Assembly: GCA_964437505.1 (NCBI GenBank)
Contig: CAYTGU010000005.1
Span: 15,645-79,644 of the forward strand
Source of the DNA: an uncultured bacterium
GTDB lineage: Bacteria; JAHJDO01
DNA length: 64,000 bases
Direction: 5' to 3'
The position numbers were made by a program, and so were the translations under genes. The notes below the pieces were generated by a model. That model did no database searches and was not told the DNA's origin. It saw nothing but the letters and a program-made list of their open reading frames with translations. Shown piece by piece: positions 6,359 to 64,000 of the stretch (its first letter is position 1; each line of letters begins with the position of its first letter).

Positions 6359-9349
6359 TCAAGCTAAATCTGCGGACTCAATAACTTCTACTTTACCAAA
6401 TATTCCATAGGGTGCAAACTTATAGTTATCTGTCCATTTTTCTTCATTGCAAAATTCTCCTGGTCCTGTCCATTGCAGTTTCCCTTTATAGTGAAGCGGA
6501 CCAAGCATATTTCTCAGGCTTCCTACAAGCTCAAGACTGATTTTGTTAGTGCCTTTTTTTAGAAGATTTGTAATATCCAGTCCATAAGGCTCCCAGCACA
6601 AAAGACCAGCTTGTCTATTGTTTATCTTTATATTTATTACCGTTGCCTTATGCTTATTAATCTTGAGTATATATTTCCTGCTTTTTCTCTTATCAACAGA
6701 TATATCCTGCTTATATGTTATTGCCCCAGGATAAAATGGAAAGCCTTGTTCTACCCAATCACCTGTTTTGATTGTATCTTTTTGTTTCTCAAGAACAAGA
6801 TTATTCTTATTAACGCTGAAGTCACCGAGTATATAACAATTTTCTAGCTCAACATCCTGTCTATATTTCTTTGTCACAACTAGCAGTTCATTTTTGCCTT
6901 TTTTTGCATATTTAGCTATTGGGATTAGTTTGAAACTTATATCAATGTACCATTCAGGGTTTTTATACGTAACCTTTTTGTTATTAACGAAAATATCGAA
7001 GTTTTGCGGCTCTTCGATCAACAAATTAATATTATTGACAGAAGCTAGATTTGATAAGAATTCGAATCTTAGAGAGACCTTTGCATTGTCTAAGTCTTTC
7101 ATATTCTTGTATGCTTTCCAGAATTGAACACCACTGTTACTCTTTATCTCAGGCAATCCAAAACGTTCCCTGATCTGTTCATGGGCTTTCCATACAGGGA
7201 GCATTCTGCTCCATTTATTATTATTTATCCTGTATCTACAGAAATCAAGTGTCAGAGCATTCATATGAGACAACTCGATATCCCACTTGTCCTCTGAAAT
7301 CGCTACTTTTTGTGTTTCCATTTCCTTTATTTCCACAGCTTTTGGGTTCTTCTTTGGATTTAATAATAGAAGCAATGAACCTGTTGGATATATACGTTCT
7401 TTTGTTTCAGCATATTCTGCAGTATTTGTAGTTCCAACTTCACAGACATCTCCTGTTTCAGTGTTCCATTTTTCGAAAACTCCTTTCCCTTTCATTCTTA
7501 TCGTAAGATTAAACCCTTTTCCCCTGTTTGTGTTAACCAAAAAGAGAAATCTCTTTTTGCCTATTTCTCTGAGCTGATAGATAATGTCTTTTGCGTCGTC
7601 CTTATTCTCGCCTGAAATTTGGACTTCCTTTTTCGAGACTTTATCGAGTGTTTTCTCTATTTTGTGCTTATCGTTATTTATTATCAGGGCATTTTTCTTT
7701 AAAAATTCCGTTATCTCATTATCCAGACTTCCGTCCACTCTATCCGGCAGATTTCCTATGGTTATAATTTTCCCACCTTGTATAGTAAAATCTTTTAACA
7801 GTTTAAATGTATTGCTATTCCATGTGATAGAGCAGGGGATAATTACTGCTTTATATCCAGCTTCTCCAATTACAAATTTCCCATCTTTTACTTTTCCATA
7901 TTTCTCGATTATCATCTCATCCCCGTAATCATAATCTCTGTGAATCTCAAGAAGATTTTTTGAGAGCTTCAAGAATTCCTTGTCTAATTCGTTCAACGCT
8001 TCGGTTCCTTTTGGATGATACACACTCCATGCGCTTCCTATTGGGTGAAGAACTAGAATATCTCTTATAGCTTTTCCCTGAGACAGGATAAAGCTTAGTC
8101 TGCCATAATAATCTTCTACTTTCTTGTAATACTTCCACCATGGAGATTGATAATGGATTGAAGCAGGATAATCTCTCTTTCTGCATCCTTTTAAAGAATA
8201 CAAAGATAGGTGCTGGCATCTGAAGTTTACCCCAAGCGCATACTGCCAATCACCAATCCATTTCTGTCCCTCAAAACTAAAATCCCAGCCTGTGCATCCG
8301 TAAAGTTCTGATAAAACTCTTTCCCGTCCAAGCTGATTTGCAACAGAAGAACACTGTTTTACTGTTAGAATTTCCGATATGCTTTCTGTGAGAATATCTA
8401 TCCCCGGCTGATGCATATACATATAATGTGGCATTGCTGCGCCAATGGCATCGGTTTGAGACTTCAGACTTAGTTCGGAAAGGTAATGCCCTGTTTGCTG
8501 AAGATTGTGCTTTTCGCACCAGTTATAAATATTCTCAGAAAAGCTCTTGAGGAATAGTTCCGTTGCACATTTCCAATAATTATATCTATGTTTTTTAAAA
8601 TCTCCAGTTTCATATATTAAAGAAGGCAAATTATCAATAATACTGTAATTACATCTTGACTTAAAATATTCAGGAAGTTTGTCTGTCCATGGAAGTACAG
8701 CTTTTACTTTCTTTGGTTTGATCTCATCAAAACCAGGCCAATGATGATAATTCGGCTCATCAGTAAAAATACCTGATATTACTTCCCCAAATTTTTCGCC
8801 TGCTTCTTTTAAATAAGCTTCATGAGTGCTTTTTATAAACTCCCGAACTGCTTCCTTACTCATTGTGTCAAGGTATGATGCTCCGTTATACCTTGGGCTG
8901 TCAGGAGCGTACTCAAAGGTTACAACTAATAATTTCTTTTTGGCATTTGGTATGGCCTTTACCAATATCTTTCCTTTAACGTTCTTAACATCTTTTGAAG
9001 AAATTTCCCTAAAAACAATTCCTTTATTTCTATATTTTTTGTTTTTTGATGTAACAATCCCACCTGCTGCCCCGCTCGGGTACCCGTCCTCATCATAAAG
9101 CCATGCGTTCATTCCTGTCTTTTTAGCCTCATCCACACATACTTTTATCATCTTCATCCATTCTTTAGACAAATATTCTGTAATAAGCCCAACTCTTGAA
9201 TGCATGAAAAATCCGCCCATGCCGGACTTTTTCATCTCTCTTATCTGTCTTCTTAATTCATTCTCTTCCAGCTTATCATTCCAGCTCCAGAACGGCGCTC
9301 CCCGCCAATCCTTGCCTGGATCTTTGAATGTTTTTTGTGTCTGACTCAT
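6359..9349 (-). CDS. Large (996 aa) putative glycoside hydrolase. It is a candidate alpha-L-rhamnosidase-like enzyme by context only.
   Basis: The N-terminal segment (RGAPFWSWNDKL ... EMKKSGMGGFFMHSRVGL ... WLYDEDGYPSG) reads like a TIM-barrel glycosidase catalytic domain. No signal peptide is obvious. The family was not confidently recognised. Confidence 0.4.
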   Translation of the reverse strand: MSQTQKTFKDPGKDWRGAPFWSWNDKLEENELRRQIREMKKSGMGGFFMHSRVGLITEYLSKEWMKMIKVCVDEAKKTGMNAWLYDEDGYPSGAAGGIVTSKNKKYRNKGIVFREISSKDVKNVKGKILVKAIPNAKKKLLVVTFEYAPDSPRYNGASYLDTMSKEAVREFIKSTHEAYLKEAGEKFGEVISGIFTDEPNYHHWPGFDEIKPKKVKAVLPWTDKLPEYFKSRCNYSIIDNLPSLIYETGDFKKHRYNYWKCATELFLKSFSENIYNWCEKHNLQQTGHYLSELSLKSQTDAIGAAMPHYMYMHQPGIDILTESISEILTVKQCSSVANQLGRERVLSELYGCTGWDFSFEGQKWIGDWQYALGVNFRCQHLSLYSLKGCRKRDYPASIHYQSPWWKYYKKVEDYYGRLSFILSQGKAIRDILVLHPIGSAWSVYHPKGTEALNELDKEFLKLSKNLLEIHRDYDYGDEMIIEKYGKVKDGKFVIGEAGYKAVIIPCSITWNSNTFKLLKDFTIQGGKIITIGNLPDRVDGSLDNEITEFLKKNALIINNDKHKIEKTLDKVSKKEVQISGENKDDAKDIIYQLREIGKKRFLFLVNTNRGKGFNLTIRMKGKGVFEKWNTETGDVCEVGTTNTAEYAETKERIYPTGSLLLLLNPKKNPKAVEIKEMETQKVAISEDKWDIELSHMNALTLDFCRYRINNNKWSRMLPVWKAHEQIRERFGLPEIKSNSGVQFWKAYKNMKDLDNAKVSLRFEFLSNLASVNNINLLIEEPQNFDIFVNNKKVTYKNPEWYIDISFKLIPIAKYAKKGKNELLVVTKKYRQDVELENCYILGDFSVNKNNLVLEKQKDTIKTGDWVEQGFPFYPGAITYKQDISVDKRKSRKYILKINKHKATVINIKINNRQAGLLCWEPYGLDITNLLKKGTNKISLELVGSLRNMLGPLHYKGKLQWTGPGEFCNEEKWTDNYKFAPYGIFGKVEVIESADLA

Positions 9350-24191: not shown

Positions 24192-25301
24192 TTATTTTTT
24201 ACTTCTCAAAAATGTTGGAATGTCCAGATTGCTGTCACCACCCAGCTCTCTGTTTACTTTTTCCAGCATAACCCGATCCTTTATCATAGTTTCTTTCCCG
24301 TGAACTCCCAATGCCTTTGAAACGAATTTTACTTCCTTTTTCTCCAAAGATGGAATATCAGTAGCAATAATTGTAAGTTTCAGCATATTGTTTAGTCTTT
24401 TATCTATAATAGCTCCGAATACTATATTAGCGCTATGTATTACTGCTTTACGAACATTATCAATAATCTTTTCAACTTCTCCAAACCTGAGATCTTCACC
24501 TCCTGTTATATTGACAAGCATTGTTTTTGCACCTTTGATATCAATCCCTTCTATGAGTGGACATAGAAGAGCATTTTTAACAACAGAGGATATTCTGTCT
24601 TCACCATATGCAGTTCCCACTGCTAAGGTAGCTTCTTTGCCATGGGTTATTACCTGCTGAATGTCCGATATATCAAGATTTATTATTCCTGGAGCAGCTA
24701 CAAGGTCAGAGATTGCGCTAATAGCGTCGAATAAAGTGTCATTTGTAAATTCAAATGCTTTTGAGAAAGAAGAGTCTTTGTCAATGGTTCCAAAAAGTTT
24801 CTGGTTTGGTATGGAGATTATTGCGTTGGATTTTTCTTTTATTGCTCTTAGTCCATCTTTGGCCTGCATACATCTTTTTTTTCCTTCAAATAGAAAAGGG
24901 CTTGTAACTATTGCTATTGTTAACGCCCCTAGTTCCCTTGCAATTTCACAGATTAGTGGGGTTGCTCCTGTGCCTGTTCCGCCACCAAGTCCGCAGGTCA
25001 CAAACACGATGTCTGAGTTTTTTAATGCTTCGGCAATTTCTGCTCTGCTTTCATTCAGGCTTCGACGTCCTAAGTCTATATCAGAACCCGTTCCAATTCC
25101 TCTCGTTGTCTGCAGACCAATCTGAATTTTATGGGGAACAATAGATGTCCTAAGAGCCTGAATATCTGTGTTAATGTTAATACATTCTACTCCGGAGAGG
25201 CCTTTTTTGTATATTGCATCTACAGAATTATTACCACCTCCACCAACTCCAACTACCTTGATACTTGCGCCTACTTTGGTCTCTTCAACTATCTCAAACA
25301 T
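24192..25301 (-). CDS. ftsZ: Cell division GTPase FtsZ.
   Basis: Contains IKVVGVGGGGNN and the GGGTGTG tubulin signature. An AAAGGAG RBS precedes it. Confidence 0.95.
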   Translation of the reverse strand: MFEIVEETKVGASIKVVGVGGGGNNSVDAIYKKGLSGVECININTDIQALRTSIVPHKIQIGLQTTRGIGTGSDIDLGRRSLNESRAEIAEALKNSDIVFVTCGLGGGTGTGATPLICEIARELGALTIAIVTSPFLFEGKKRCMQAKDGLRAIKEKSNAIISIPNQKLFGTIDKDSSFSKAFEFTNDTLFDAISAISDLVAAPGIINLDISDIQQVITHGKEATLAVGTAYGEDRISSVVKNALLCPLIEGIDIKGAKTMLVNITGGEDLRFGEVEKIIDNVRKAVIHSANIVFGAIIDKRLNNMLKLTIIATDIPSLEKKEVKFVSKALGVHGKETMIKDRVMLEKVNRELGGDSNLDIPTFLRSKK

Positions 25302-25320
25302 TAGTTATATTCCGCTCCTT

Positions 25321-25554
25321 TTAGATTGCTTTCCCTAATCGCTCTGCCAGCCATACCTTGATAACAGATTGACGAGGCACCCCTAGACGCTTTGCTTCCT
25401 TATCCAATGAGTGAATCATCCAAATAGGGAAGTCCACATTAACCCTTTTCTGGTCTTGCTCAAGCCTTCTCGCCTTTGTAAGATCTAGATACTTAGAAAC
25501 GTTATTCCCTTCATCAAACTTTTTATCAAACTCTCTAGCTTTCATATATTTCAA
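25321..25554 (-). CDS. brnA: BrnA-family antitoxin (CopG/RHH-like), the antitoxin half of a BrnT/BrnA type II TA pair.
   Basis: 77 aa, overlapping the upstream toxin gene. The sequence ...LDKEAKRLGVPRQSVIKVWLAERL is a typical BrnA C-terminus. Confidence 0.7.
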   Translation of the reverse strand: MKYMKAREFDKKFDEGNNVSKYLDLTKARRLEQDQKRVNVDFPIWMIHSLDKEAKRLGVPRQSVIKVWLAERLGKAI

Positions 25555-25795
25555 CCTCCTCTTTTCGGGATTGTCTTACTGAAATAATTCTTATCTTTTC
25601 GCCGCGATAGGTAACAACTCCTGACCAATGCTTTCCAGAAATCATACCAATTACCAAATATCTTGGTTCATCACTGGTTCTTGCCGGAATTTCAATTAAG
25701 TCAGTATCCTCCCATAATAACTGCGCTTCAATAAAGTCAATACCATGTTTATTCTTATTGATTTCGCTTTTCTTAAGGTCAAACTCAAACTCCAT
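25535..25795 (-). CDS. brnT: BrnT-family toxin (DUF497/COG2929 ribonuclease toxin). The ORF is open to 25825, but the likely start is MEFEFD at 25795.
   Basis: MEFEFDLKKSEINKNKHGIDFIEA...YLVIG...VVTYR matches the BrnT N-terminal pattern (MKFEWD..K...N..KHG). Confidence 0.7.
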   Translation of the reverse strand: MEFEFDLKKSEINKNKHGIDFIEAQLLWEDTDLIEIPARTSDEPRYLVIGMISGKHWSGVVTYRGEKIRIISVRQSRKEEVEIYES

Positions 25796-25952
25796 AATAT
25801 AATTTATATACCAAAAAGATACCAATTGTCAACAAAAAAATCTCTTTTTCGTCATTGTAGAAACGTAGCGACGCTGCAATCTGTCATTCTTTTCGACGCA
25901 ACCGCTTGCTTTAGCTGGCGGTTATCTGGGCAGTCCCATTTGCTTTGTTGTG

Positions 25953-26531
25953 TTATTCTTTGATTTGATTGGGGAAGCCAGACGTTTGTTTCTTCAAGAC
26001 AATGGTGTATTCGATATGATCTTTAAATGGAATGACAAACAGCATCAGCCCTTTTTCCTCAAAGGTGGAGGATATGGTCAGGTTCCCTTCAGAATCTTTA
26101 GACATTACGCTAGTCCGGGATTTCTTTGCGATGCCAGGGAAAATGGCTAGACCAACAGTGGAGGGACTATCTGCCACATAATACAAGCAGCCCTGATTCC
26201 AGTTGAACGTCTTGGGTTGAAACACGAGCTCCTTGGTTTGAATTACTCCATTTGACCAATAGTAAACTATGGTCATCATTCGGTCTGACTCTTGCTGGAT
26301 TACTACTTCTGAATTATTTGAGATACTAGTAGCGCTAACAAAGGGATTGCCCGTCCTGAAGTATCCACTACAGTTAGATTTGAGAAAAATGTATGTCCCC
26401 GAGAAATCAGCGTGTTTGTTGTCGTACGTCTGACCTCTACCACTAGGCACAAACAATACGACACACCAGACAAGGCACCATAAAACAAATATCCCAAGAC
26501 CCCATAGACATCTATGTTTTTTTTGCATCAT
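25953..26531 (-). CDS. Hypothetical secreted or membrane-anchored protein (192 aa), with an N-terminal hydrophobic signal/anchor.
   Basis: MMQKKHRCLWGLGIFVLWCLVWCVVLFV is followed by a beta-rich domain. GC content is visibly higher than in its neighbours. No family was recognised. Confidence 0.5.
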   Translation of the reverse strand: MMQKKHRCLWGLGIFVLWCLVWCVVLFVPSGRGQTYDNKHADFSGTYIFLKSNCSGYFRTGNPFVSATSISNNSEVVIQQESDRMMTIVYYWSNGVIQTKELVFQPKTFNWNQGCLYYVADSPSTVGLAIFPGIAKKSRTSVMSKDSEGNLTISSTFEEKGLMLFVIPFKDHIEYTIVLKKQTSGFPNQIKE

Positions 26532-26557
26532 AACATTACTCCCTGCTTAATTTTCCC

Positions 26558-27772
26558 TCAGAAAAAATCTCCAAATATCTTCTTTACGCTTCCTGTCATT
26601 CTACCCATAAGGTTTTTATTTTCAAATCTTGACGTTCCTCCAAATTTTCTGAAGTAAGAACCATGTTGTAATAGGCCGACACATGTTGAATAACTTGGCT
26701 TGCCAGAGATATCTTCAAGCTGGTATGCAAGATTTGGGATGCCCATTCTTGTTGGCAGATTAAATGTATCTCTTACGGTTGAAGTCATTCCTTTAAGCAA
26801 AGAGCCGCCACCTGTGAGAACTACTCCAGAGGCAATTAGATTTACAAAGTCCGCTCTTTCTATCTCTTCCTTTACAATTCGGATGGTTTCTGTAATCCTG
26901 GGTTGAACAATCTCCGAAAGCTGATATGGGGAGAAATGATTAGAATTCTCCTGATTATTAGTATTGGTTTCCATATCTAACCCAGCGCCGTATTTTTTCT
27001 TTATTTTCTCTGCTTCAGGTGTGGAGATATGAAGGCCTATAGTTATGTCATTTGTTATATGATTACCGCCTACTGGTAGTACCTGAGAATATTTCAACTC
27101 ATCTTTTTCAAAAATAACAAAATTTGTTGTACCTGCTCCCATTTCAATCAATACAACGCCAAGCTCTTTTTCACTCTGTGATAGTACCGATTCAGAAGAG
27201 GCCAATAGATTAAATACAATATCTTCTATCTGAAATCCAGCCTGATTAACACTTTTTATGAAATTCTGTGTATGTGTTACCATGCCAGTAACAATATGTG
27301 TCATTATTTCAAGTTTCACACCATTCATGCCGATTGGATCCTTAATCTCTGTCTGGCCATCTACAATGAAGTCTTGAGGCAGAACTTGGATAATTTCCCT
27401 TCCTTCCGGCAAGGCAATTGCTTTGGCTGTTTCTATCACGTTTCGAGTATCTTCAACTGTGATCTCTCTGTCTTCTCTTCTAACTGGAACACTTCCTTTG
27501 CTGTTAACTGTATTAATATGTCCGCCTCCTATTCCCATGAATACAGATTTGATTTCTAGTTCAGATGTCTTTTCTGCCTCTCTAAGAGCTTCTTTAATAT
27601 CATTGGTTACAACATCTATATTAACAATAAGTCCTTTTTTTAGGCCTCTGGTAGGAACTATTCCCATTCCTATAATTTCTATACTATCCTCTTTGTCCAA
27701 TTTGCCAACCATAGCGCATATTTTAGAGGTTCCTATATCCAGTGCTGTTACAATGTCTTTCCGAGTTCGCAT
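26558..27772 (-). CDS. ftsA: Cell division protein FtsA.
   Basis: 404 aa actin-like ATPase with VTALDIGTSKICAMVG and DIGGGTT-like phosphate motifs. Confidence 0.92.
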   Translation of the reverse strand: MRTRKDIVTALDIGTSKICAMVGKLDKEDSIEIIGMGIVPTRGLKKGLIVNIDVVTNDIKEALREAEKTSELEIKSVFMGIGGGHINTVNSKGSVPVRREDREITVEDTRNVIETAKAIALPEGREIIQVLPQDFIVDGQTEIKDPIGMNGVKLEIMTHIVTGMVTHTQNFIKSVNQAGFQIEDIVFNLLASSESVLSQSEKELGVVLIEMGAGTTNFVIFEKDELKYSQVLPVGGNHITNDITIGLHISTPEAEKIKKKYGAGLDMETNTNNQENSNHFSPYQLSEIVQPRITETIRIVKEEIERADFVNLIASGVVLTGGGSLLKGMTSTVRDTFNLPTRMGIPNLAYQLEDISGKPSYSTCVGLLQHGSYFRKFGGTSRFENKNLMGRMTGSVKKIFGDFF

Positions 27773-30440: not shown

Positions 30441-31825
30441 ATTAATTTATCGGCAAGTTTCCCTGCTACTTCGGAAATATCACCTGCTCCCATAAAAAGC
30501 ATTATATCTCCTTTCTCCATAGTATTGCTCAGATAACTGAGAATTCTACTTTTGTCAGGAATATATACGGCATTTTTATAGCCATGATTCTTCATAGTAC
30601 TAAAGATTATATCTGTATTCGCTCCCTTTATAGGAGCTTCTCCTGCGCTGTATACATCGGTTAATATAACCTTATCAGCTTTTGATAGAGACACAGCGAA
30701 CTGTTTGTAAAGTTTTTCAGTTCTTGTGTATCTATGCGGTTGAAATACAGCCACAATACGCTTTTTCTCTAAGTTTTTGGCTGTTTCTAAAACGGATTTA
30801 ATTTCAGCCGGATGATGAGCATAATCATCTATAACCATTATGTTGCCGATATGCGCCTTAATCTGAAATCTTCTGTCAACACCCCTGAAACTTTGCAGGC
30901 TTTCCTTAACTGCATCAAAGGATAATCCTATTTCCATACCAAGCGCAATTGCTGAAAGCGCATTAAGCACATTATGTTTTCCAGGAACACTGAGCGGAAA
31001 AGAGCCCAGTAATTCAGTATTTTTGTATACATCAAAACGTGTTGAAAGTCCTTCGCATATCAGGTTGTCAGCCCGTATATCAGCATTTTTGCTCATTCCA
31101 TAGGTTGTTATTGGAGTTTTAATTTTTTTTTTATGTAGTTTTGAAACCAGTTCTTTTACATTATTATTGTCAATGCAACAAAATATCCTGCCGGATTTAT
31201 CTATATGTTCTGCAAAATTGAGAAACGCATTTATAATATCTCCAAGATTCTCATAATGCTCCAGATGGTCTTCATCAATATTTGTAATAATGCCGAAATA
31301 CGGATTTAGTTTCAGAAAGGATTTATCGCTTTCGTCAGCCTCTGCTACAAACCATGGGCTTGCTCCAAAGCGGGCATTTCCCCCTAAAGAACTAATTTCA
31401 CCGCCTACAATTACTGTCGGGTCATACTCTGTTTCTATAAGCATATGCGCAATCATTGATGTTACTGTGGTTTTTCCATGACAACCTGTTACAAATATGC
31501 TCTTTTTGTTATTTGCCATTTTTGCGAGCAGTTCTGCTCTGTGAATTATTGGGATTTTTCTTTTTCTGGCCTCAACAAGTTCAGGGTTAGACTTTGAAAT
31601 AGCTGTGGAATAAACGATAAGATCCTGGCTGTTTATGTGCATGGAATTATGACCAGTGAAGATATGCGCGCCGTTTAGTCTTAGTTTATTGGTTATTGAT
31701 GAAGGTTTCTGGTCCGAGCCACTTACCTGATATCCTGATTTAAGTAGGATATAGGCAATCCCGCTCATTCCTATCCCACCAATACCAACAAAATGAATAG
31801 ATTTAGTTTCTTTTTGTATCATCAA
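30437..31825 (-). CDS. murC: UDP-N-acetylmuramate--L-alanine ligase.
   Basis: 462 aa with HFVGIGGIGMSG and GTHGKTTT Mur ligase motifs. Confidence 0.9.
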   Translation of the reverse strand: MMIQKETKSIHFVGIGGIGMSGIAYILLKSGYQVSGSDQKPSSITNKLRLNGAHIFTGHNSMHINSQDLIVYSTAISKSNPELVEARKRKIPIIHRAELLAKMANNKKSIFVTGCHGKTTVTSMIAHMLIETEYDPTVIVGGEISSLGGNARFGASPWFVAEADESDKSFLKLNPYFGIITNIDEDHLEHYENLGDIINAFLNFAEHIDKSGRIFCCIDNNNVKELVSKLHKKKIKTPITTYGMSKNADIRADNLICEGLSTRFDVYKNTELLGSFPLSVPGKHNVLNALSAIALGMEIGLSFDAVKESLQSFRGVDRRFQIKAHIGNIMVIDDYAHHPAEIKSVLETAKNLEKKRIVAVFQPHRYTRTEKLYKQFAVSLSKADKVILTDVYSAGEAPIKGANTDIIFSTMKNHGYKNAVYIPDKSRILSYLSNTMEKGDIMLFMGAGDISEVAGKLADKLI

Positions 31826-33500
31826 TCAATATAAAATCAATTAGTCTCTTATCGCTATTCACTTTAACTATTTTTGCCTTTACTGAATCTCCAAGCTGGA
31901 ATCTTCTCTTTGTGCGTCTTCCTACAAGCGCAAACTGTTTCTCAGAGAAAGTGTAGTAGTCATTCTTTAATGCGCTGACATGAACAAGCCCTTCAGCAAG
32001 AGTATCACTAAGCTCAATAAATAAGCCATATGGCTGAACACCGGATATTACCCCTTCAAATATGTCTCCCACTTTATTTTTCATAAACTCAACCTGTTTT
32101 AACTTAATTGTTTCTCTTTCTATTTTAAGAGCTATTTGCTCTCTTTCAGAAGCAATGCCTGCAATCTCAGGAAGGTTATCCATTCGGTTTTTAAACTTGT
32201 TTTTAAGAATTCTGTGAACAATTAAGTCAGGATAGCGCCTGATAGGGGAGGTAAAATGAGTATAGCAGTTTAATGCAAGCCCGAAGTGCCCAACATTCTT
32301 GGTGGAATATATTGCTTTTTGCATGCATGTTAAAAGGATCTGGCTAATAAGAACGTGGTCCTTTTCCCCATTTGTTTTATGCAGGAATCTCTGTATGTAT
32401 TTTGGATTTTTGGATTTATTTTGATCAAATTTGTAATTCAGCGTTTTTGCAAGCATTGCAAAGTCTTTTATTTTTAGGTCGTCTGGAGTTTCATGAATAC
32501 GATAGATCATAGGAACCTTATTCTTAGTAATGTATTCTGCTACGCACTGATTTGCAAGAAGCATGAATTCCTCGATCAAAACATGACTGGATAATCTCTT
32601 CTTCTTTTGAATATCAAGAACTTTCCCATTCCCGTCAAGCGAGATTTTAACCTCGGGGACATCAAAATCAATGTATCCTCTATCCAATCTTTTTTTATCT
32701 AATATCTTGCTTAGTTTGTACATAATTTTTAGAGCTGATGATATTCCTGTGTGTTTACTTGCCTCGTTAGAATATATCAATTCTTCTGCAGATTCATATG
32801 ATAACCTTGCCTTGCTTTTGATTATGCTCTCAAAGATTTCGTATTCTGTAATATTGCCCTGCGCATCTATTTTTATCATGACTGTTAAAGTTAATCTGTT
32901 TTCGTCAGGCTTTAAACTGCACAGATTCTCAGAAAGCTTGGAAGGCAGCATTGGAATCACTTTATCAGGCAGGTATATGCTTGTTCCTCTGGAAAGAGCT
33001 TGGTTGTCTATATGCTTATTTTTATTTACATAATGATCAACATCCGCTATGTGAACGCCCAGTGAGAAACCTCCTTTCTCAGTTTTCTCGATAGATACTG
33101 CATCGTCAAAATCCTTTGCATCTTCAGGGTCTATTGTAAAACATGTAAGTTCTGTTAGGTTGCGGCGCTTTTTAATTTCTTCTTTAGAAATAAACGGATC
33201 AATTCTTTCACATTCTTCTATTACTGATTTAGGAAAAGTTGGTGATATTTTAAATTCTTCTAAAATACTCTTAATAGGATCAACTATCTTTGAAGCGGTA
33301 TATCTGCCACCTCTGTCTTTCACAATTAGTCCTTGTTTGAAAATTTCCTTTACAGTGCGGCGAAATTTTGGATATGCAGTTCTGTGAATGCCCATTGTTC
33401 TTGCTAGTTCTTTTATTTTTAATGGACGCTTTGATTTTTTAAGACAAGATATAATTTTATCTGTAAGGGGACTTCGATATTCGGATTCGGAAATTTTCAC
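31803..33500 (-). CDS. rnr: RNase II/R-family 3'-5' exoribonuclease (short RNase R-like, with an N-terminal winged-helix and a C-terminal S1 domain).
   Basis: 565 aa with an RNB catalytic region (FTIDPEDAKDFDDAVS) and a C-terminal S1 domain (GDIFEGVISGV...). Confidence 0.8.
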   Translation of the reverse strand: MKISESEYRSPLTDKIISCLKKSKRPLKIKELARTMGIHRTAYPKFRRTVKEIFKQGLIVKDRGGRYTASKIVDPIKSILEEFKISPTFPKSVIEECERIDPFISKEEIKKRRNLTELTCFTIDPEDAKDFDDAVSIEKTEKGGFSLGVHIADVDHYVNKNKHIDNQALSRGTSIYLPDKVIPMLPSKLSENLCSLKPDENRLTLTVMIKIDAQGNITEYEIFESIIKSKARLSYESAEELIYSNEASKHTGISSALKIMYKLSKILDKKRLDRGYIDFDVPEVKISLDGNGKVLDIQKKKRLSSHVLIEEFMLLANQCVAEYITKNKVPMIYRIHETPDDLKIKDFAMLAKTLNYKFDQNKSKNPKYIQRFLHKTNGEKDHVLISQILLTCMQKAIYSTKNVGHFGLALNCYTHFTSPIRRYPDLIVHRILKNKFKNRMDNLPEIAGIASEREQIALKIERETIKLKQVEFMKNKVGDIFEGVISGVQPYGLFIELSDTLAEGLVHVSALKNDYYTFSEKQFALVGRRTKRRFQLGDSVKAKIVKVNSDKRLIDFILIDDTKRN

Positions 33501-33511
33501 TTTAAAATGTC

Positions 33512-33578
33512 CCCTCTGTCATTGCTGAGAGTGAAATTCTCGGCCACGCCGCTACGCTTCTCGCAATGTCATTTTTGC
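33512..33578 (+). repeat. Copy A of a ~55-nt repeat element (core ...GAGAGTGAAATTCTCGGCCACGCCGCTACGCTTCTCGCAATGTCATTTTT). It lies downstream of the MNT gene and can fold as an imperfect hairpin.
   Basis: Read directly. It is homologous to copy B (34345-34397, same orientation) and copy C (25846-25886, opposite orientation). Confidence 0.7.
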
Positions 33579-33590
33579 TATTAAATGAGG

Positions 33591-33920
33591 TCAAGAAATC
33601 TCTATGCCGAATTTTCTAATCTCAATAATAAGCGGAGAATCATGATTTCTGTATTCTTGCAGAGAAACAGGAATTGGTTCAATACGAGTATCTATCCTGC
33701 GGGTTTTTTTTAAAAGAAATTGAAGTTCGTCTGTGGTGTCCTTCCCGAATTTAGAAGAAATAATGCAAAGGTCAATGTCGCTTTCTTTTTTTGCTTTCCC
33801 TCTGGCATAGGAACCAAAAAGAATTAATTTCTCAACAGGCGTACCTTCTTCCTCTAAGAGATTTCTAAACCTTAAAGCGATATTTTGTATGTTTTTTCTT
33901 ATAGTTTTCTTTTTAGCCAT
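33591..33920 (-). CDS. Nucleotidyltransferase (MNT-type), the antitoxin partner of the HEPN toxin.
   Basis: 109 aa with the GSYARG...DIDL minimal nucleotidyltransferase motif. It overlaps the HEPN gene. Confidence 0.8.
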   Translation of the reverse strand: MAKKKTIRKNIQNIALRFRNLLEEEGTPVEKLILFGSYARGKAKKESDIDLCIISSKFGKDTTDELQFLLKKTRRIDTRIEPIPVSLQEYRNHDSPLIIEIRKFGIEIS

Positions 33921-34285
33921 AGATATATGTCCTTCGCTCTCTTAAAATATCCTTCCGTATATTCTTTAGTTGCTTTTTTGAAAAATTTGCGTTTATAGTC
34001 ATTATACCTTGCCTCAATGTTAAAACTGGTTATTTCAGCCAAAAGATCTAATTGTTCTTCAGAAAATTCGATACCACTTAATTCTGACAATCTTACTAAA
34101 TTATGTACATAAGGAGCTTGCTGTTTTGTTTTCTTGACCACCAATGATTTAATAATCTTCTCAAGAAATAAATGACAAAAGAAAAGACAATGATGATATC
34201 TCTTTGAGATGAAAAGACTTTTAGCGGTTTTAAGGTCATCTTCAGCCCCTTCAAACCAGTAATTAATCATCTCGCTAATTTTCAT
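33899..34285 (-). CDS. HEPN-domain protein, the toxin of a HEPN/MNT type II or VII TA module.
   Basis: 128 aa helical protein with the typical HEPN layout and an E..RY-like C-terminal region (NIEARYNDY). It is co-oriented with, and overlaps, the MNT gene. Confidence 0.75.
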   Translation of the reverse strand: MKISEMINYWFEGAEDDLKTAKSLFISKRYHHCLFFCHLFLEKIIKSLVVKKTKQQAPYVHNLVRLSELSGIEFSEEQLDLLAEITSFNIEARYNDYKRKFFKKATKEYTEGYFKRAKDIYLWLKRKL

Positions 34286-34344
34286 GTTTCTATTTTATCA
34301 CCTCTCTCATAAAAATCCACTAATATTTATATTTGATCAAGTCG

Positions 34345-34397
34345 GAGAGTCACAGAGAGATTGCTTCGTCGCTTACACTTCTCGCAATGACATTTTA
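34345..34397 (+). repeat. Copy B of the same repeat element (GAGAGTCACAGAGAGATTGCTTCGTCGCTTACACTTCTCGCAATGACATTTTA). It lies between the ppiD-like stop and the HEPN start.
   Basis: Read directly. It forms a direct repeat with copy A across the HEPN/MNT cassette. Confidence 0.7.
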
Positions 34398-35858
34398 GTC
34401 TAGAGATGTGGATTTAGATCGTATTTTATCAAGATTATTTACAATCTTTGCTTCCTGCTTTAGGTTTTTGAACCATTTCTCATATACTAACTGCTTCTTT
34501 TTTTGCATAAGAGTCTGTTTTATCTGTTCCTTCTGTGCATCAAATTCTTCTTTATCAGCGGCTTTTTTCTCAACAAGTTCAATCACAAATATACGTTGGG
34601 GTTCTGACACTTTTTTTATATCATCTTTTTTTAGGAGGAACACTTCTGCTATGAGTTTAGGGGCATATCCTAGGTCTTTTGCATACACTCCTCTTTCAAA
34701 AAACTCTGTTTGCTTAATCTCATAACCGGACTTTTTTGCCAACTTTTCAATGTTTTTTGCCCCGAACCGAGATTCTCTGGTTCGGGGAAATTTTTTAATG
34801 AACTCATCTGCTTTTTTCTCAGCTAGTTCCTTTGCTTTAAGAACAGTTAATCTTTTGCGTACTTCATCCTTCACTTCTTCTATCTGATCAGGTATGTAGG
34901 ATGGTTTTAGATCCACAAGTCTTAATATACAAAATCCTTTAGCTGTTTTAACAGGGTTGCTTATATCATCTTTGCTAAGAGAAAATGCGCTTTGAGAAAA
35001 CTCACGGGAATGGCCTATTTCTAAAATTTCCTCTGTTTCTGCGAAATACCCGGTCTGCTTTGATGAGAGGTTCTCTTTCTTCAATACCTCTTTCCATTTA
35101 TTTTCTTCTCCCAGGTCAATAGAAAGATCATATGCTCTCTCTTCATCTTTAATAAGAACGTATTCTATATTAACCCTATCAGGCTGCTTGAACGACTTTT
35201 TATTCTTAGAAAAATATTCAGTAATATCTTCATCATTCACAGATACCTTAGTTTCGAATTCATCTACACTGAAGCGTATATATTTGATTTTTACTTTTTC
35301 GTTTTTTACCATAAATTCGTCTAAAATTACATTGTCGCTTATTATAACTGGCTCAGTGATTCTTTTCCAAAGATGCTCAAGTGCAAGAGATTGCCTAATC
35401 CCGTTCTCAATTCTTTGCCACTGAGAAGCAGGGATGCCGTTTACATACTGTTCAAACTTTGCCTTATCAAACCCGCCTTTCTTGTTTTTAAATACAGGAT
35501 CTTGTTTTATCCTATCTATAATCTCTTTATCTGATATTTTTATACGCTGTTTCTTTATCTCCTGCATAAGGAGTCTTTGGTCTATTAATTGATTTAGAAC
35601 CTGTTTCTCTAAGTCCAGATTTTTTTTGATTCTGTCAAATTGATCTCCATACATTTTTCTATAATTTCTCTCCGTACTTATTAGAGCATAGCTGAACTCT
35701 TCATGCTTGATAACATCTCCATTCACTTTTGCTACAGCAATATTCGTTTTTGCTTTGAATGTCATATGCATTCCCCATGAAAAGAATATTGTAGCTAGGA
35801 AGCTTAATGCCGTTATCCACATTATTGGCTTCATGTTCTTTCTTATAGACTTAAGCAC
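34395..35858 (-). CDS. Periplasmic chaperone / peptidyl-prolyl isomerase PpiD-like (SurA N-terminal-like plus PpiC rotamase domains), N-terminally membrane-anchored.
   Basis: 487 aa with an N-terminal TM segment (IMWITALSFLATIFF) and a parvulin-type domain. Confidence 0.7.
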   Translation of the reverse strand: MLKSIRKNMKPIMWITALSFLATIFFSWGMHMTFKAKTNIAVAKVNGDVIKHEEFSYALISTERNYRKMYGDQFDRIKKNLDLEKQVLNQLIDQRLLMQEIKKQRIKISDKEIIDRIKQDPVFKNKKGGFDKAKFEQYVNGIPASQWQRIENGIRQSLALEHLWKRITEPVIISDNVILDEFMVKNEKVKIKYIRFSVDEFETKVSVNDEDITEYFSKNKKSFKQPDRVNIEYVLIKDEERAYDLSIDLGEENKWKEVLKKENLSSKQTGYFAETEEILEIGHSREFSQSAFSLSKDDISNPVKTAKGFCILRLVDLKPSYIPDQIEEVKDEVRKRLTVLKAKELAEKKADEFIKKFPRTRESRFGAKNIEKLAKKSGYEIKQTEFFERGVYAKDLGYAPKLIAEVFLLKKDDIKKVSEPQRIFVIELVEKKAADKEEFDAQKEQIKQTLMQKKKQLVYEKWFKNLKQEAKIVNNLDKIRSKSTSLD

Positions 35859-62992: not shown

Positions 62993-63263
62993 ATTTACTT
63001 AAAATGTCATCGCTTTCGCTTATTTGTGCTTTACGCCTTATATTGCAGATTGTTTTATTACCTCTGGATCTTTGAAAATTTTTTCTAACATGGTAGCCTC
63101 CCTTTCTGGCTTTTATAGCCAATAGGAGAGTACCATATTATGTTAAGCTATTAAAGAAACGAATAATCGTAACTGTCGTGTACACCCAGATTTATTCACA
63201 GAGCGAAACTTACCATAACCCAGTGCTTATCATAAAACACATGATCAGATCAAGAAAGCCGGG

Positions 63264-63623
63264 ATGATTGAAGAGGCAAAGTTTGTTTTGTCTTGCGATG
63301 AATACAAGTATGAGATCAGCGAAGCTATGCGTGATGCTGCTAAGAAAACAAAGACTGGCATTGGAGCGAATCTCGCGCTATTAGACGCAGCAAGGCGATA
63401 TGAAACCAGAGTATGGTGCGATATCTATAACCTTGGCGGAAGTCATGGTCGAATTGGTAATGCTTATCGCCATTTAGCGGATCACGTAAATTTTGGTAAC
63501 AGTTTAGCTGTGGAAAGTAATGGAAAAATTTGGATGAGAAAATCGGCAACTAAATTTGAAAGAAGTAAAGATAATAGTCAGGGCGATCTTGTTTGTAGCA
63601 GATTAAATTGTCTTGAAAGTTAA
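63264..63623 (+). CDS. Hypothetical protein (119 aa), possibly a gene fragment.
   Basis: An ORF with no recognised family. It lies in a degraded GC-richer region next to a transposase remnant. Confidence 0.3.
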   Translation: MIEEAKFVLSCDEYKYEISEAMRDAAKKTKTGIGANLALLDAARRYETRVWCDIYNLGGSHGRIGNAYRHLADHVNFGNSLAVESNGKIWMRKSATKFERSKDNSQGDLVCSRLNCLES

Positions 63624-64000
63624 GGAGTTAATCCTTTGGTAAGAAGAGTTATGAGAACTTGTTTTGGGTCCAAGCCTTTGAGTTTGGCAGTTTGGATAAT
63701 AGTTGAAATAAGAGATACGTTCTTGGTTCTCTGGTCAGAGCGATTGCCGAAGATAATTTCGTTCAGCAAGCACTTTGGAAGGGGATTCTCCGTTAAGATG
63801 AGGACAAGATTTGGAGAAAGGGCAATGCTGAACTCTTGCTGCAACAGGATGAGAATAACTCATTCTTTGAATTCGCCTTTTTTAATTAATTGGACGTTTA
63901 TGTCTGTAAGTTCTTCAATGAGGTCTCTATGATGATAGTAATTGTTGAGAAGTTTTTGAACTTGCTTGCGAAGTTTAGGAGGAATAGTCGTTCTCTTCTT
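63620..64000 (-). mobile_element. IS66-family transposase (TnpC) C-terminal remnant. The reading frame is interrupted by an in-frame TGA at 63860-63862 and continues past the window edge.
   Basis: ...NEIIFGNRSDQRTKNVSLISTIIQTAKLKGLDPKQVL matches the conserved IS66 TnpC tail (YLFAGSDEGGERAA.IYSLIGTAKLNGIDPEAYL). The upstream in-frame part is ...LIKKGEFKE*VILILLQQ. Confidence 0.55.

What the first reader, a model, noticed from the sequence alone, without database searches (positions are those of the whole stretch)
25846..25886. Third copy of the same repeat family, inverted, immediately upstream of the brnT/brnA module
The reverse complement of 25846-25886 is gacagattgcagcgtcgctacgtttctacaatgacgaaaaa. 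It aligns with copy B (gagagattgcttcgtcgcttacacttctcgcaatgacatttta) at about 30 of 38 positions. So both TA insertions in this window (HEPN/MNT and BrnTA) are associated with the same ~40-55-nt element. A possible degenerate fourth copy lies just after the HpcH aldolase stop (63001-63030; its reverse complement reads ...agcgaaagcgatgacatttta). A shared element at independent TA insertion sites points to a common insertion mechanism or a shared operator or promoter motif for these addiction modules.
Basis: seen in the sequence. Interest (0 to 1): 0.62.

Follow-up and report, generated by a model that had tools for sequence, protein, structure and literature searches.

The report
Decayed Ssn-type hairpin repeat beside toxin-antitoxin genes
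The 41-base element upstream of brnT/brnA is a real but worn copy of a hairpin-forming DNA repeat found across many bacterial phyla, the kind recently shown to be cut by small GIY-YIG 'Ssn' nucleases; it is not a toxin-antitoxin promoter or operator, although in this lineage it sits beside every toxin-antitoxin insertion examined.

Summary
Copy C (25846-25886) and copy B are reciprocal best non-self matches in the window. A profile built only from copies in other organisms ranks B, A and C as the window's top three hits. The proposed fourth copy (63001-63030) gets no hit.

The family is very widespread: AGATTGC-YWCG-[variable hairpin]-CTCGCAATGAC. It has a (C/T)GTC tag, a covarying inner stem and frequent inverted doublets, and occurs in about 17 phylum-level groups and in many viral contigs.

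It belongs with the CGTC-tagged REPs (Di Nocera 2013), now called NTS/SRM repeats (Chenal 2025). Small single-domain GIY-YIG genes are bracketed by inverted copies, and this was re-found here independently. This subtype fails the published SRM search pattern.

It is not an operator or promoter. Eighty homologous BrnTA cassettes share a promoter/operator that lies downstream of the element, and 77 of them lack the element.

Four relatives have empty ppiD-rnr sites with no repeat. All four toxin-antitoxin (TA) modules seen in this lineage carry a copy at a cassette boundary. Across the whole family there is no significant TA enrichment.

Verdict: a new member of a known kind. The local link to TA insertions is real but unexplained.

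The parts
25850..25883 (+). Copy C, written head-first on the + strand: CGTC tag (25850-25853), stem ATTGTAG (25854-25860), 13-nt loop, stem CTGCAAT (25874-25880), C after the palindrome (25881).
   Evidence: Sequence. Reciprocal best match to B. Third-best profile hit in the window. Folds with DNA parameters as a 7-bp stem with one G-T pair plus a 3-bp inner stem, -3.3 kcal/mol.
25883..25889 (+). GTCATTC: remnant head of a second, truncated unit. In relative L336 a complete ATTCCTGC..GCAGGAAT unit lies here in tandem.
   Evidence: Alignment of the window with L252/L336: homology starts at GAATGACAG.
25796..25832 (-). brnTA promoter/operator: -35 TTGACA at 25827-25832, GGTATA..TATA repeats, -10 region near 25803-25810. 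It lies between copy C and the brnT start codon.
   Evidence: Conserved across 80 BrnTA cassettes; cassette homology ends just upstream of the -35. Identical over about 60 nt in L336. Promoter-like site at 25825-25796.
25535..25795 (-). brnT (86 aa, BrnT_toxin)
   Evidence: Pfam PF04365, E 3e-24; called gene in public contigs.
25321..25545 (-). brnA (74 aa, CopG-type antitoxin). Its stop is 19 nt from the ftsZ start.
   Evidence: Pfam PF12441.
25953..26531 (-). 192-aa ORF of unknown function with a hydrophobic N-terminus. It is lineage-variable cargo between ftsA and copy C.
   Evidence: No Pfam hit. Absent from or replaced in relatives L332, L335 and L336.
34357..34392 (-). Copy B, head-first on the - strand (TGTCATTGCGAG..GAAGCAATCTC). 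It is the one copy that matches the family pattern exactly. It abuts the ppiD-like stop codon (34395-34397).
   Evidence: profile E 8e-10.
33517..33572 (.). Copy A: an inverted doublet with the tagged ends outward. It consists of a truncated arm TGTCATTGCTGAGAG (33517-33531, + strand) and a fuller unit ending CTCGCAATGTCA (about 33542-33571).
   Evidence: profile E 0.036; folds as one long hairpin, z = -2.0.
33510..34418 (-). The whole insertion relative to four relatives: 21 nt + B + HEPN (33899-34285) + MNT (33591-33920) + A + 7 nt. It replaces 19 nt of the empty site, including the last ppiD codons. The right junction is ambiguous within the shared CATTTTAAA (33501-33509).
   Evidence: Empty sites in L332, L333, L335 and L336. 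Pfam HEPN and NTP_transf_2.

Best explanation
Copy C is a decayed member of a very widespread family of short hairpin-forming DNA repeats.

Written head-first, the family reads (C/T)GTC-ATTGC-GAG-[variable hairpin]-(A/T)(A/G)-GCAAT-CTC. It is a subtype of the CGTC/TGTC-tagged REP superfamily, also called NTS/SRM repeats.

From published work on the superfamily (Chenal 2025), these repeats act as single-stranded DNA. The hairpin, the GTC just 5' of it and the C just 3' of it are bound by a cognate single-domain GIY-YIG nuclease (Ssn). Ssn cuts the ssDNA a few bases upstream. The nuclease gene itself sits between two inverted copies, and gene-less inverted doublets and single copies are scattered in intergenic DNA.

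Shown here:
- Membership of A, B and C in the family.
- Covariation in the family's inner stem.
- The doublet arrangement.
- Inverted copies of this subtype flank GIY-YIG genes homologous to Neisseria SsnA.
- C is not part of the brnTA promoter/operator.
- A and B are absent from the empty sites of relatives.

Inferred:
- In this lineage the copies are passengers or recombination scars at the edges of accessory DNA. The repeat centres follow the genome rather than the locus, which suggests turnover or gene conversion among copies.
- C itself (CAATGAC instead of CGCAATGAC, one base deleted) has no specific role in brnTA expression beyond being a weak hairpin.
For: Identity of the copies:
- B matches the generic pattern exactly. 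The profile built from external copies ranks B, A and C as 1, 2, 3 in the window.

Breadth:
Hosts span about 17 phylum-level groups and include cultured Pedobacter, Chryseobacterium, Hymenobacter and Sporomusa.
- 339 instances gave 244 distinct sequences with conserved flanks.

Structure:
- In the 37-nt class, 72 cells show changes on both sides of an inner-stem pair, against 25.6 +/- 3.8 in shuffles. The covariation score is 0.328 against 0.088 (0/500 shuffles) and 0.05-0.10 for slid controls.

Arrangement:
- 67 of 98 close pairs are inverted with the tagged ends outward.
- Flanking genes are convergent in 30 cases and divergent in 10.
- There is no orientation bias relative to transcription.

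Enzyme link:
- GIY-YIG genes are bracketed by inverted copies in L227, L164, L167 and L217.
- In 22 loci chosen by the protein alone, a GTCA-tagged hairpin lies within 200 nt upstream in 20, downstream in 19, and on both sides in 18. The background rate is 0.044 per 400 nt.
- All 8 annotated regions fetched from cultured bacteria show the same arrangement with that genome's own repeat type.
- The L227 protein is 44% identical to the Neisseria gonorrhoeae SsnA-region homolog (E 9e-27).

Literature:
- PMC3733652 describes CGTC/TGTC tags, stems starting with A-T pairs, and no dedicated transposase.
- PMC11893778 describes Ssn, NTS/SRM and NTS-ssnA-NTS; the GTC and the C after the palindrome are critical, and cleavage is on ssDNA only.

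Not an operator:
-.

Local history:
-.
Against: - The published degenerate SRM search sequence matches none of 339 canonical copies of this subtype and nothing in the window.
- The subtype has an interrupted stem and long variable loops. The CGTC-REP families described in 2013 have 8-9 bp stems with 4-5 nt loops and a CCA tail.
- No ssn homolog is present in the 64-kb window or in about 86 kb from four relatives. Whether a cognate nuclease exists in this genome is therefore unknown.
- B and C fold no better than shuffled sequence as RNA.
- The strict co-location with TA modules in this lineage (4 of 4 modules, no copy elsewhere in about 150 kb) is not predicted by a purely passive-relic view.
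Confidence: 0.75

Rival explanations
1. Common insertion or exchange mechanism. The repeats are the active junction sites through which TA cassettes were brought in. Two routes are possible: recombination between repeat copies, or Ssn-type cleavage of incoming or lagging-strand ssDNA that delimits repeat-gene-repeat units.
For: - All TA modules seen in the lineage have a copy at a cassette boundary: window HEPN/MNT (both sides), window brnTA, L336 brnTA and L335 parE-type.
- Empty ppiD-rnr sites in four relatives have no repeat.
- B and A abut the limits of HEPN/MNT cassette homology to within a few bases.
- The right insertion junction is 7 nt outside the tagged end of the outer unit. This is about where Ssn cuts relative to NTS.
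- Between the window and L336, homology upstream of brnTA breaks inside the repeat.
- Precedents: the NTS-gene-NTS configuration around variable genes in Neisseria, and REP in the variable folA-apaH region that holds ccdO157 in E. coli.
Against: - 77 of 80 BrnTA cassettes and 4 of 4 other HEPN/MNT contexts lack the element.
- brnTA has a copy on one side only.
- The left HEPN/MNT junction is 21-25 nt from B.
- Other accessory insertions in the lineage have no copy: the 6-gene block in L333 and the 271-aa ORF in L332.
- A two-gene cassette has only its boundaries as intergenic space, so 'at the boundary' is weak evidence.
- There is no significant family-wide TA enrichment.
Confidence: 0.2
2. 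Shared operator or promoter motif for the addiction modules.
For: - The element lies 50-110 nt upstream of three different TA operons in this lineage.
- Its head, ATGACA, resembles a -35 hexamer. One weak promoter-like match uses it near rnr.
Against: - The conserved brnTA promoter/operator is downstream of C and is present in 77 cassettes without the element.
- Three unrelated antitoxin families would have to bind one site.
- Orientation relative to the operon differs between B and C.
- At the orthologous brnTA site the repeat centre is unrelated (7/19) although the promoter is identical.
- No promoter hexamers lie inside C.
Confidence: 0.03
3. RNA-level hairpin. In this view it acts as an mRNA 3'-end stabiliser, a processing site or an insulator that shields the autoregulated TA operons from read-through within the dcw and ppiD-rnr operons.
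For: - REPs are known to stabilise upstream mRNA (reviewed in PMC3184786).
- Elements are enriched between convergent and co-directional genes and depleted between divergent ones.
- The TA modules here are inserted inside operons.
Against: - There is no orientation bias relative to transcription (28 vs 40 and 37 vs 40).
- No T-tract or terminator-like site was found.
- B and C are not more stable than shuffles as RNA.
- SsnA does not bind the RNA form of NTS.
- No Rfam family matches.
Confidence: 0.1
4. Chance similarity in AT-rich intergenic DNA.
For: C is short, has two indels relative to B, and its profile E-value alone (0.74) is not significant.
Against: - C and B are reciprocal best hits, well above background.
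- C is the third-ranked hit for a profile built from unrelated organisms.
- The positional ortholog in L336 is a clearer copy (E 0.015) at the same place.
- The diagnostic CGTC tag, the ATTG..CAAT stem and the C after the palindrome are all present.
Confidence: 0.02

Closest known systems
NTS / Ssn-related motif (SRM) repeats and the Ssn family of single-domain GIY-YIG ssDNA nucleases (Chenal et al., Nat Commun 2025, PMC11893778)
   Same: - An unpaired (C/T)GTC lies directly 5' of a palindrome, and a C lies directly 3' of it.
- Hairpin of 20-50 nt.
- Hundreds of dispersed intergenic copies, often as inverted pairs.
- Inverted copies bracket a roughly 95-aa GIY-YIG gene. Here this holds for the ATTGC subtype (L227, L164, L167, L217, L348).
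- The gene product is 44% identical to the Neisseria homolog.
- Each nuclease lineage has its own repeat variant.
- Repeats surround variable genes.
   Different: - The stem is ATTGC/GCAAT, interrupted by a purine-rich internal loop (GAG / AAG), with an inner hairpin of free sequence and length.
- The published SRM search sequence matches 0 of 339 copies.
- Hosts include many phyla outside Pseudomonadati, such as Chloroflexota, Patescibacteria, Bacillota and Omnitrophota, plus many viral contigs.
- No ssn gene is seen in this window, and no cleavage was tested.
CGTC-tagged REP superfamily (Di Nocera, De Gregorio, Rocco, BMC Genomics 2013, PMC3733652), which includes Neisseria dRS3 and Rickettsia RPE-4/6
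   Same: - Terminal CGTC, often changed to TGTC.
- Stem beginning with A-T pairs.
- A short unpaired tail.
- Mostly inverted dimers.
- Presence in several phyla.
- No Y1 transposase attached.
   Different: - The described families have continuous 8-9 bp stems, 4-5 nt loops and a CCA tail.
- This subtype has a 5-bp outer stem, an internal loop, a variable inner stem and a CTC tail.
GTAG-tagged REP / REPIN elements with RAYT (Y1, IS200/IS605-like) transposases
   Same: - Intergenic hairpin repeats.
- Inverted doublets.
- A single-copy enzyme gene flanked by inverted repeats.
- Action on single-stranded hairpins.
- Within-genome homogeneity of the repeat type.
   Different: - No GTAG tag.
- The associated enzyme is a GIY-YIG nuclease, not a HUH/Y1 transposase.
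- No recurrent transposase family was found in 240 element-bearing loci.
Integron attC sites flanking gene cassettes, which are often TA modules
   Same: - Imperfect palindromes with conserved ends and a variable centre.
- Recombine as folded single strands.
- Flank small promoter-containing cassettes such as TA modules.
   Different: - No RYYYAAC / GTTRRRY core sites.
- No integrase or attI, and no cassette arrays here.
- Copies are dispersed across the genome.

Membership tests
NTS/SRM repeats of Ssn nucleases | Three conserved nucleotides (GTC) directly upstream of the palindrome, which give the element its orientation and are needed for cleavage | tested here: met
   C: CGTC at 25850-25853. 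B: TGTC. A: TGTC on the outer arm and TGAC on the inner unit. Family logo: GAC followed by A or G in the opposite orientation. Feature taken from PMC11893778.
NTS/SRM repeats of Ssn nucleases | Palindrome of 20-50 nt able to form a hairpin as ssDNA | tested here: met
   C folds as a 7-bp stem plus a 3-bp inner stem with DNA parameters. Family-wide inner-stem covariation score is 0.328 vs 0.088, 0/500 shuffles. The fold of B is weak.
NTS/SRM repeats of Ssn nucleases | Cytosine immediately after the palindrome (most critical base for binding) | tested here: met
   GCAAT-C in B and C; invariant in the family pattern (AGATTGC read on the other strand). Lost in the inner unit of A.
NTS/SRM repeats of Ssn nucleases | Match to the published degenerate SRM search sequence HGTCWYN(0-2)YYVSBRHN(0-5)WNVSBRGN(0-2)RNCYNB | tested here: not met
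   0 of 339 canonical copies and 0 sites in the window match. Proteobacterial positive controls (L366, L367, L368, L372, L373) do match.
NTS/SRM repeats of Ssn nucleases | Inverted copies flank a single-domain GIY-YIG (cd10448-type) gene | tested here: met
   Met at family level: L227, L164, L167, L217 and L348 carry the ATTGC subtype. In 18 of 22 protein-selected loci the gene is flanked on both sides. All 8 regions from cultured bacteria show it. Not met locally: no homolog in the window or in the relatives' loci.
NTS/SRM repeats of Ssn nucleases | Cleavage of the ssDNA form by the cognate Ssn | not testable with these tools
   Requires purified protein and oligonucleotides.
NTS/SRM repeats of Ssn nucleases | Many copies per genome together with an ssn gene | not testable with these tools
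   Only 64 kb of this genome and about 86 kb of relatives could be read. That gave 3 copies in the window and 2 in the relatives.
CGTC-tagged REPs (Di Nocera 2013) | Terminal CGTC (or TGTC) tag, and a stem with A-T pairs in first and second positions | tested here: met
   C reads CGTC-ATTG... In the family the tag is T in 214 and C in 90 of 337 instances. Definition.
CGTC-tagged REPs (Di Nocera 2013) | Continuous 8-9 bp stem, 4-5 nt loop, CCA tail | tested here: not met
   The family has a 5-bp outer stem, an internal loop and a variable inner stem with a CTC tail. C has a 7-bp stem, a 13-nt loop and a CTG tail.
GTAG REP / REPIN-RAYT | GTAG tag and an associated Y1 transposase | tested here: not met
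   No GTAG at the conserved ends. No recurrent transposase-like family was found among 2221 ORFs of 240 loci. The associated gene is GIY-YIG.
Integron attC | R''/R' core sites RYYYAAC ... GTTRRRY, next to an integron integrase or in a cassette array | tested here: not met
   Core sites are absent from A, B, C and the family consensus. No integrase is seen in the window ORF map or in the Pfam scan of the neighbours.
TA operator/promoter | Conserved together with the TA cassette and overlapping its promoter | tested here: not met
   77 of 80 BrnTA cassettes lack it; the conserved promoter/operator lies downstream. 4 of 4 other HEPN/MNT contexts lack it.

The most novel reading that the evidence does not exclude
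In this deep-branching, compact-genome lineage the Ssn-type repeats are the working junctions of a cassette-exchange process, not passive relics. Repeat-bracketed TA modules would be cut out of, or delimited on, single-stranded DNA by a cognate GIY-YIG nuclease. They would then be recombined into operon-internal sites such as ftsA-ftsZ and ppiD-rnr. This would give Ssn/SRM systems a role in moving addiction modules. A more modest corollary also follows: the published SRM definition misses a subtype found across many phyla, so the reach of Ssn systems is considerably underestimated.
Probability: 0.15. Interest if true: 0.7.

Novelty: new member of a known kind. Interest (0 to 1): 0.4.

Why it matters
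The finding itself is a worn copy of a known class of repeat. It should not be annotated as a TA regulatory site.

Three points go beyond that.
1. The ATTGC-GAG..AAG-GCAAT subtype is present in about 17 phylum-level groups and in many viral contigs. It escapes both Rfam and the published SRM search pattern. Censuses of Ssn-associated repeats, and the many spurious small ORFs that translate them in MAGs, could be improved with a profile for it.
2. The CGTC-REP superfamily was described in 2013 as lacking a dedicated enzyme. It lines up host by host with Ssn genes, and this was reproduced here from sequence alone.
3. In this lineage every TA module examined sits next to a copy, at sites that are empty and repeat-free in relatives. 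One of these sites is inside the otherwise rigid ftsA-ftsZ junction. This offers a concrete, testable case for whether such repeats take part in cassette gain.

Tried and rejected
- Exact-sequence literature search for the core strings returned only unrelated primers.
- Rfam gave nothing at any copy. This covers the gathering-threshold scan of the window and E-value scans of 15 element-rich loci, including Pedobacter loci, to test a recollection that the Pedo-repair motif might be this element.
- Integron attC, Xer/dif-like sites and intrinsic terminators were considered and rejected on sequence. There are no core sites and no T-tracts.
- IS200/IS605- or RAYT-type mobilisation was considered because of the subterminal-hairpin geometry of the HEPN/MNT insert. 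No Y1 transposase recurred in 240 loci, and the enzyme that does recur is GIY-YIG.
- I briefly treated the GIY-YIG link as new. Two literature searches found nothing. A third found Chenal et al. 2025, which had already established it.
- The Pandey & Gerdes 2005 paper on TA loci as mobile cassettes could not be read because it is not held.
- The first exact-protein look-up of BrnT with the TTG start failed. The ATG start is the one on record.
- The first Pfam census of neighbours was uninformative for small TA families, because only the top 25 families are listed. It was repeated on proteins of 140 aa or less.
- The NCBIfam scan of the GIY-YIG proteins returned nothing.

Full report
**1. The observation**

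The window has about 37% G+C and carries a dcw cell-division cluster on the minus strand.

Copy B is at 34355-34397. Copy A is at about 33517-33572.

Gene order on the minus strand around C is: ftsA (26558-27772), a 192-aa ORF of unknown function (25953-26531), copy C, brnT (25535-25795), brnA (25321-25545), ftsZ (24192-25301). Around A and B it is: ppiD-like (34395-35858), B, HEPN (33899-34285), MNT (33591-33920), A, rnr.

A Smith-Waterman scan of both strands makes B and C reciprocal best non-self hits at 18.5. The background maximum is 14.0-14.5, the mean about 7 and the sd about 1.8.

The similarity is therefore real. C is the most degenerate of the three copies.

**2. The family**

B matches the pattern AGATTGC-N(8-24)-CTCGCAATGAC exactly. 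I recalled this pattern from spurious ORFs in metagenome-assembled genomes and then tested it.

Titles of the genome records cover about 17 phylum-level groups:
- Chloroflexota, Planctomycetota, Pseudomonadota, Nitrospirota, Desulfobacterota and Bacillota
- Bacteroidota, Ignavibacteriota, Patescibacteria, Omnitrophota, Armatimonadota and Gemmatimonadota
- Zixibacteria, Latescibacterota, Aminicenantes, Riflebacteria, Moduliflexus and Binatia

Cultured hosts include Pedobacter, Chryseobacterium, Hymenobacter and Sporomusa.

The 339 instances give 244 distinct sequences. Their consensus is G-AGATTGC-Y-W-C-G-[variable]-C-TCGCAATGAC-(A/G). Read from the other strand this is (T/C)GTC-ATTGC-GAG-...-GCAAT-CTC.

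In the 37-nt length class the inner stem covaries strongly:
- 72 cells have changes on both sides of a pair, against 25.6 +/- 3.8 in shuffles.
- The covariation score is 0.328, against 0.088 in shuffles (0/500 reach it) and 0.05-0.10 for slid controls.

Other family-level properties:
- Close pairs are mostly inverted with the GTC-tagged ends outward (67 of 98).
- Flanking genes are convergent three times as often as divergent.
- Orientation relative to transcription is unbiased.
- No Rfam family matches.

**3. Membership of the window copies**

An nhmmer profile was built only from the 242 external copies. In the 64 kb it ranks B first (E 8e-10), A second (E 0.036) and C third (E 0.74, with its 3' half as a further weak hit). 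Nothing is found at 63001-63030.

Head-first on the + strand, C reads CGTC-ATTGTAG-AAACGTAGCGACG-CTGCAAT-CTG. With DNA parameters it folds as a 7-bp stem with one G-T pair plus a 3-bp inner stem.

**4. What the family is**

An all-against-all comparison of 2221 ORFs from 240 element-bearing loci found no recurrent transposase. It did find a small GIY-YIG protein.

In L227, L164, L167 and L217 that gene lies between two inverted copies, in the order head-to-tail, gene, tail-to-head.

I then drew an independent sample chosen by the protein alone, 22 viral-contig loci at 38-52% identity:
- A GTCA-tagged perfect hairpin lies within 200 nt upstream in 20 loci, downstream in 19, and on both sides in 18.
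- The background rate is 0.044 per 400 nt.
- Each protein group carries its own stem sequence.

tblastn against plasmid records found 'GIY-YIG nuclease family protein' genes in Rhizobium, Sinorhizobium, Sphingobium, Azospirillum, Novosphingobium, Neisseria, Aeromonas, Planktothrix and Spirosoma. All 8 regions I fetched show the gene bracketed by that genome's own YGTC-tagged repeat. In N. gonorrhoeae this repeat is dRS3.

These hosts overlap the list of CGTC-REP hosts in Di Nocera et al. 2013. That paper describes CGTC/TGTC tags, stems starting with A-T pairs, and the apparent lack of a dedicated transposase.

A third literature search found that the link is already published. Chenal et al. 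2025 (PMC11893778) define NTS (CGTCATTCCCGCGMAVGCGGGAATCYRG) and the broader 'Ssn-related motifs'. They show that the roughly 94-aa GIY-YIG protein SsnA binds NTS only as ssDNA and cuts a few bases upstream. The three bases before the palindrome and the C after it are critical. They also describe the NTS-ssnA-NTS architecture and the clustering of NTS around variable genes.

The L227 protein is 44% identical to the Neisseria homolog (E 9e-27).

The ATTGC subtype has every sequence feature that matters functionally. It nevertheless fails the published degenerate SRM search string, which matches 0 of 339 copies while matching the proteobacterial controls.

I therefore file the element as a new member (subtype) of a known kind.

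**5. Is it a TA operator or promoter?**

No.
- A metagenome scan returned 80 BrnTA cassettes at 71-86% identity.
- Their upstream regions share TTGAC(A/T)-..GGTATA..-GGTATAAT-..TATACC-ATG, and homology stops just upstream of the -35.
- In the window this promoter lies between C and the start codon (25796-25832).
- Only L252/L253 (the same lineage, same position), L260 and L265 have any superfamily unit near the cassette.
- HEPN/MNT cassettes at 80-95% identity sit in four other genomic contexts without the element. The cassette homology ends exactly where B and A begin in the window.
- B and C have opposite orientations relative to their operons.

**6. Local history**

Four relatives have RNase R 84-89% identical to the window's:
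- All four have ppiD and rnr adjacent, with neither HEPN/MNT nor any repeat between them.
- L335 has ftsA and ftsZ directly adjacent.
- L332 has one 271-aa ORF between ftsA and ftsZ.
- L336 has two minus-strand ORFs, two tandem repeat units, brnTA and a 269-aa ORF between ftsA and ftsZ.

The window's HEPN/MNT insertion spans about 33510-34418 and replaces 19 nt of the empty site. B lies 21 nt inside the left junction. The outer tagged end of A lies 7 nt inside the right junction.

L335 carries a parE-type module inserted between tmk and ppiD, again with a copy about 110 nt upstream (E 0.006).

Thus all four TA modules seen in about 150 kb of this lineage have a copy at a boundary, and no copy lies anywhere else. 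In the window the three copies fill the three TA-flanking gaps out of 17 gaps of at least 60 nt.

At the orthologous brnTA site the promoter is identical between the window and L336, but the repeat centres are unrelated (7/19). C's centre resembles A and B of its own genome (13-14 matches). L336's centre resembles the L335 copy at a different locus (15/19).

This points to turnover or gene conversion among copies rather than simple vertical decay.

**7. Is the TA association general?**

I compared genes adjacent to elements with genes more than 1.2 kb away in 119 genome loci:
- Adjacent genes are not smaller than distant ones (median 218 vs 190 aa).
- Among proteins of 140 aa or less, the 73 adjacent ones include Gp49/HigB, PaREP1 (HEPN-like), PIN and HicA, one each, plus two GIY-YIG.
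- The 73 distant ones include RHH_6 and CopG_antitoxin.

This is at most a weak, non-significant enrichment. My gene calling was crude, and about a third of elements fell inside predicted, probably spurious, ORFs. A modest effect would therefore be missed.

**8. Conclusion**

C is a real, decayed Ssn-type (CGTC/TGTC-tagged) hairpin repeat, not a TA regulatory element.

The generic mechanism comes from published work on the superfamily: an ssDNA hairpin recognised and cut nearby by a cognate GIY-YIG nuclease, with the gene flanked by inverted copies. Its application to this subtype is inferred from sequence features and gene context.

Why the copies sit beside every TA module in this lineage is not settled. 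Three explanations remain open: hitchhiking with imported DNA, recombination at repeats, and nuclease-defined cassette ends. Section 6 gives the facts that bear on them.

The decisive data are a whole-genome census for repeats and ssn in this lineage, and base-level junction mapping across strains.

Noticed in passing
window 24192-27772; L332, L335, L336: The ftsA-ftsZ junction is usually invariant, but in this lineage it is a hot spot for accessory genes. It holds 0 genes in L335, 1 in L332 (271 aa), 3 in the window (192-aa ORF + brnTA) and 5 in L336. The 192-, 268- and 269/271-aa proteins have no Pfam family on record.
   Followed up: partly
window 25902-25926: Logan contigs from three different runs (L002, L005, L007) all start at GATAACCGCC.., and L251 ends there. 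This is a recurrent assembly break at the imperfect hairpin AACCGCCAGCTAAAGCAAGCGGTT, 16 nt from copy C. It could reflect a strain polymorphism or a graph artefact.
   Followed up: partly
window 25796-25832 and L252-L331: The BrnTA cassettes share a strongly conserved promoter with inverted GGTATA/TATACC repeats. These overlap the -10 and run up to the start codon, which makes them a likely BrnA operator. They are conserved across 80 metagenomic cassettes in unrelated contexts.
   Followed up: partly
L335 6686-8433: A relative carries a different accessory block between tmk and the tRNA-Arg/ppiD region: ParE toxin + antitoxin, an Xre-type HTH protein and a NYN-domain protein. An ATTGC-type repeat lies at 7220-7257.
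   Followed up: partly
L333 11585-17836: Another relative has a six-gene minus-strand block, including an ECF-type sigma factor and a 748-aa PD40/Tricorn-like protein, inserted between rnr and murC. It has no repeat at either junction.
   Followed up: no
P0121-P0195: Nearly all contigs carrying close HEPN homologs are very short, 0.5-4 kb. This suggests the cassettes sit between sequences that break assemblies, or occur in several contexts within a community.
   Followed up: no
L057 2695-2819; L021 5117-5173: Head-to-tail tandem arrays of the repeat occur: four copies with a 33-nt period in L057 and two with a 30-nt period in L021. This arrangement differs from the usual inverted doublets.
   Followed up: no
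L008-L127 (viral contigs): About 28 viral contigs share a 355-aa protein and other structural-looking genes. They carry several copies of the repeat in their intergenic regions, often 10-35 nt from gene starts or ends. One group of phages may therefore be rich in Ssn-type repeats.
   Followed up: no
L366 (Azospirillum lipoferum 4B plasmid AZO_p3) 492-998: An annotated GIY-YIG nuclease gene with its flanking CGTC repeats lies between sufB and sufC, that is, inside the suf operon.
   Followed up: no
window 63000-63263 and 63264-63932: The string TAAAATGTCATCGC follows the HpcH aldolase stop and matches the head and flank of copy B at 14/15 positions, but nothing more. Downstream are two adjacent small ORFs (119 and 98 aa) with no Pfam family, which could be another two-gene module.
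   Followed up: partly
window 31803-33500: RNase R of this lineage is short (505-535 aa) and lacks the N-terminal domains that the next-closest homologs have. Those homologs are only about 49% identical and come from Zixibacteria, Ignavibacteria and Caldithrix. NCBI names the close relatives only 'bacterium', so the lineage is deep-branching and unclassified.
   Followed up: no
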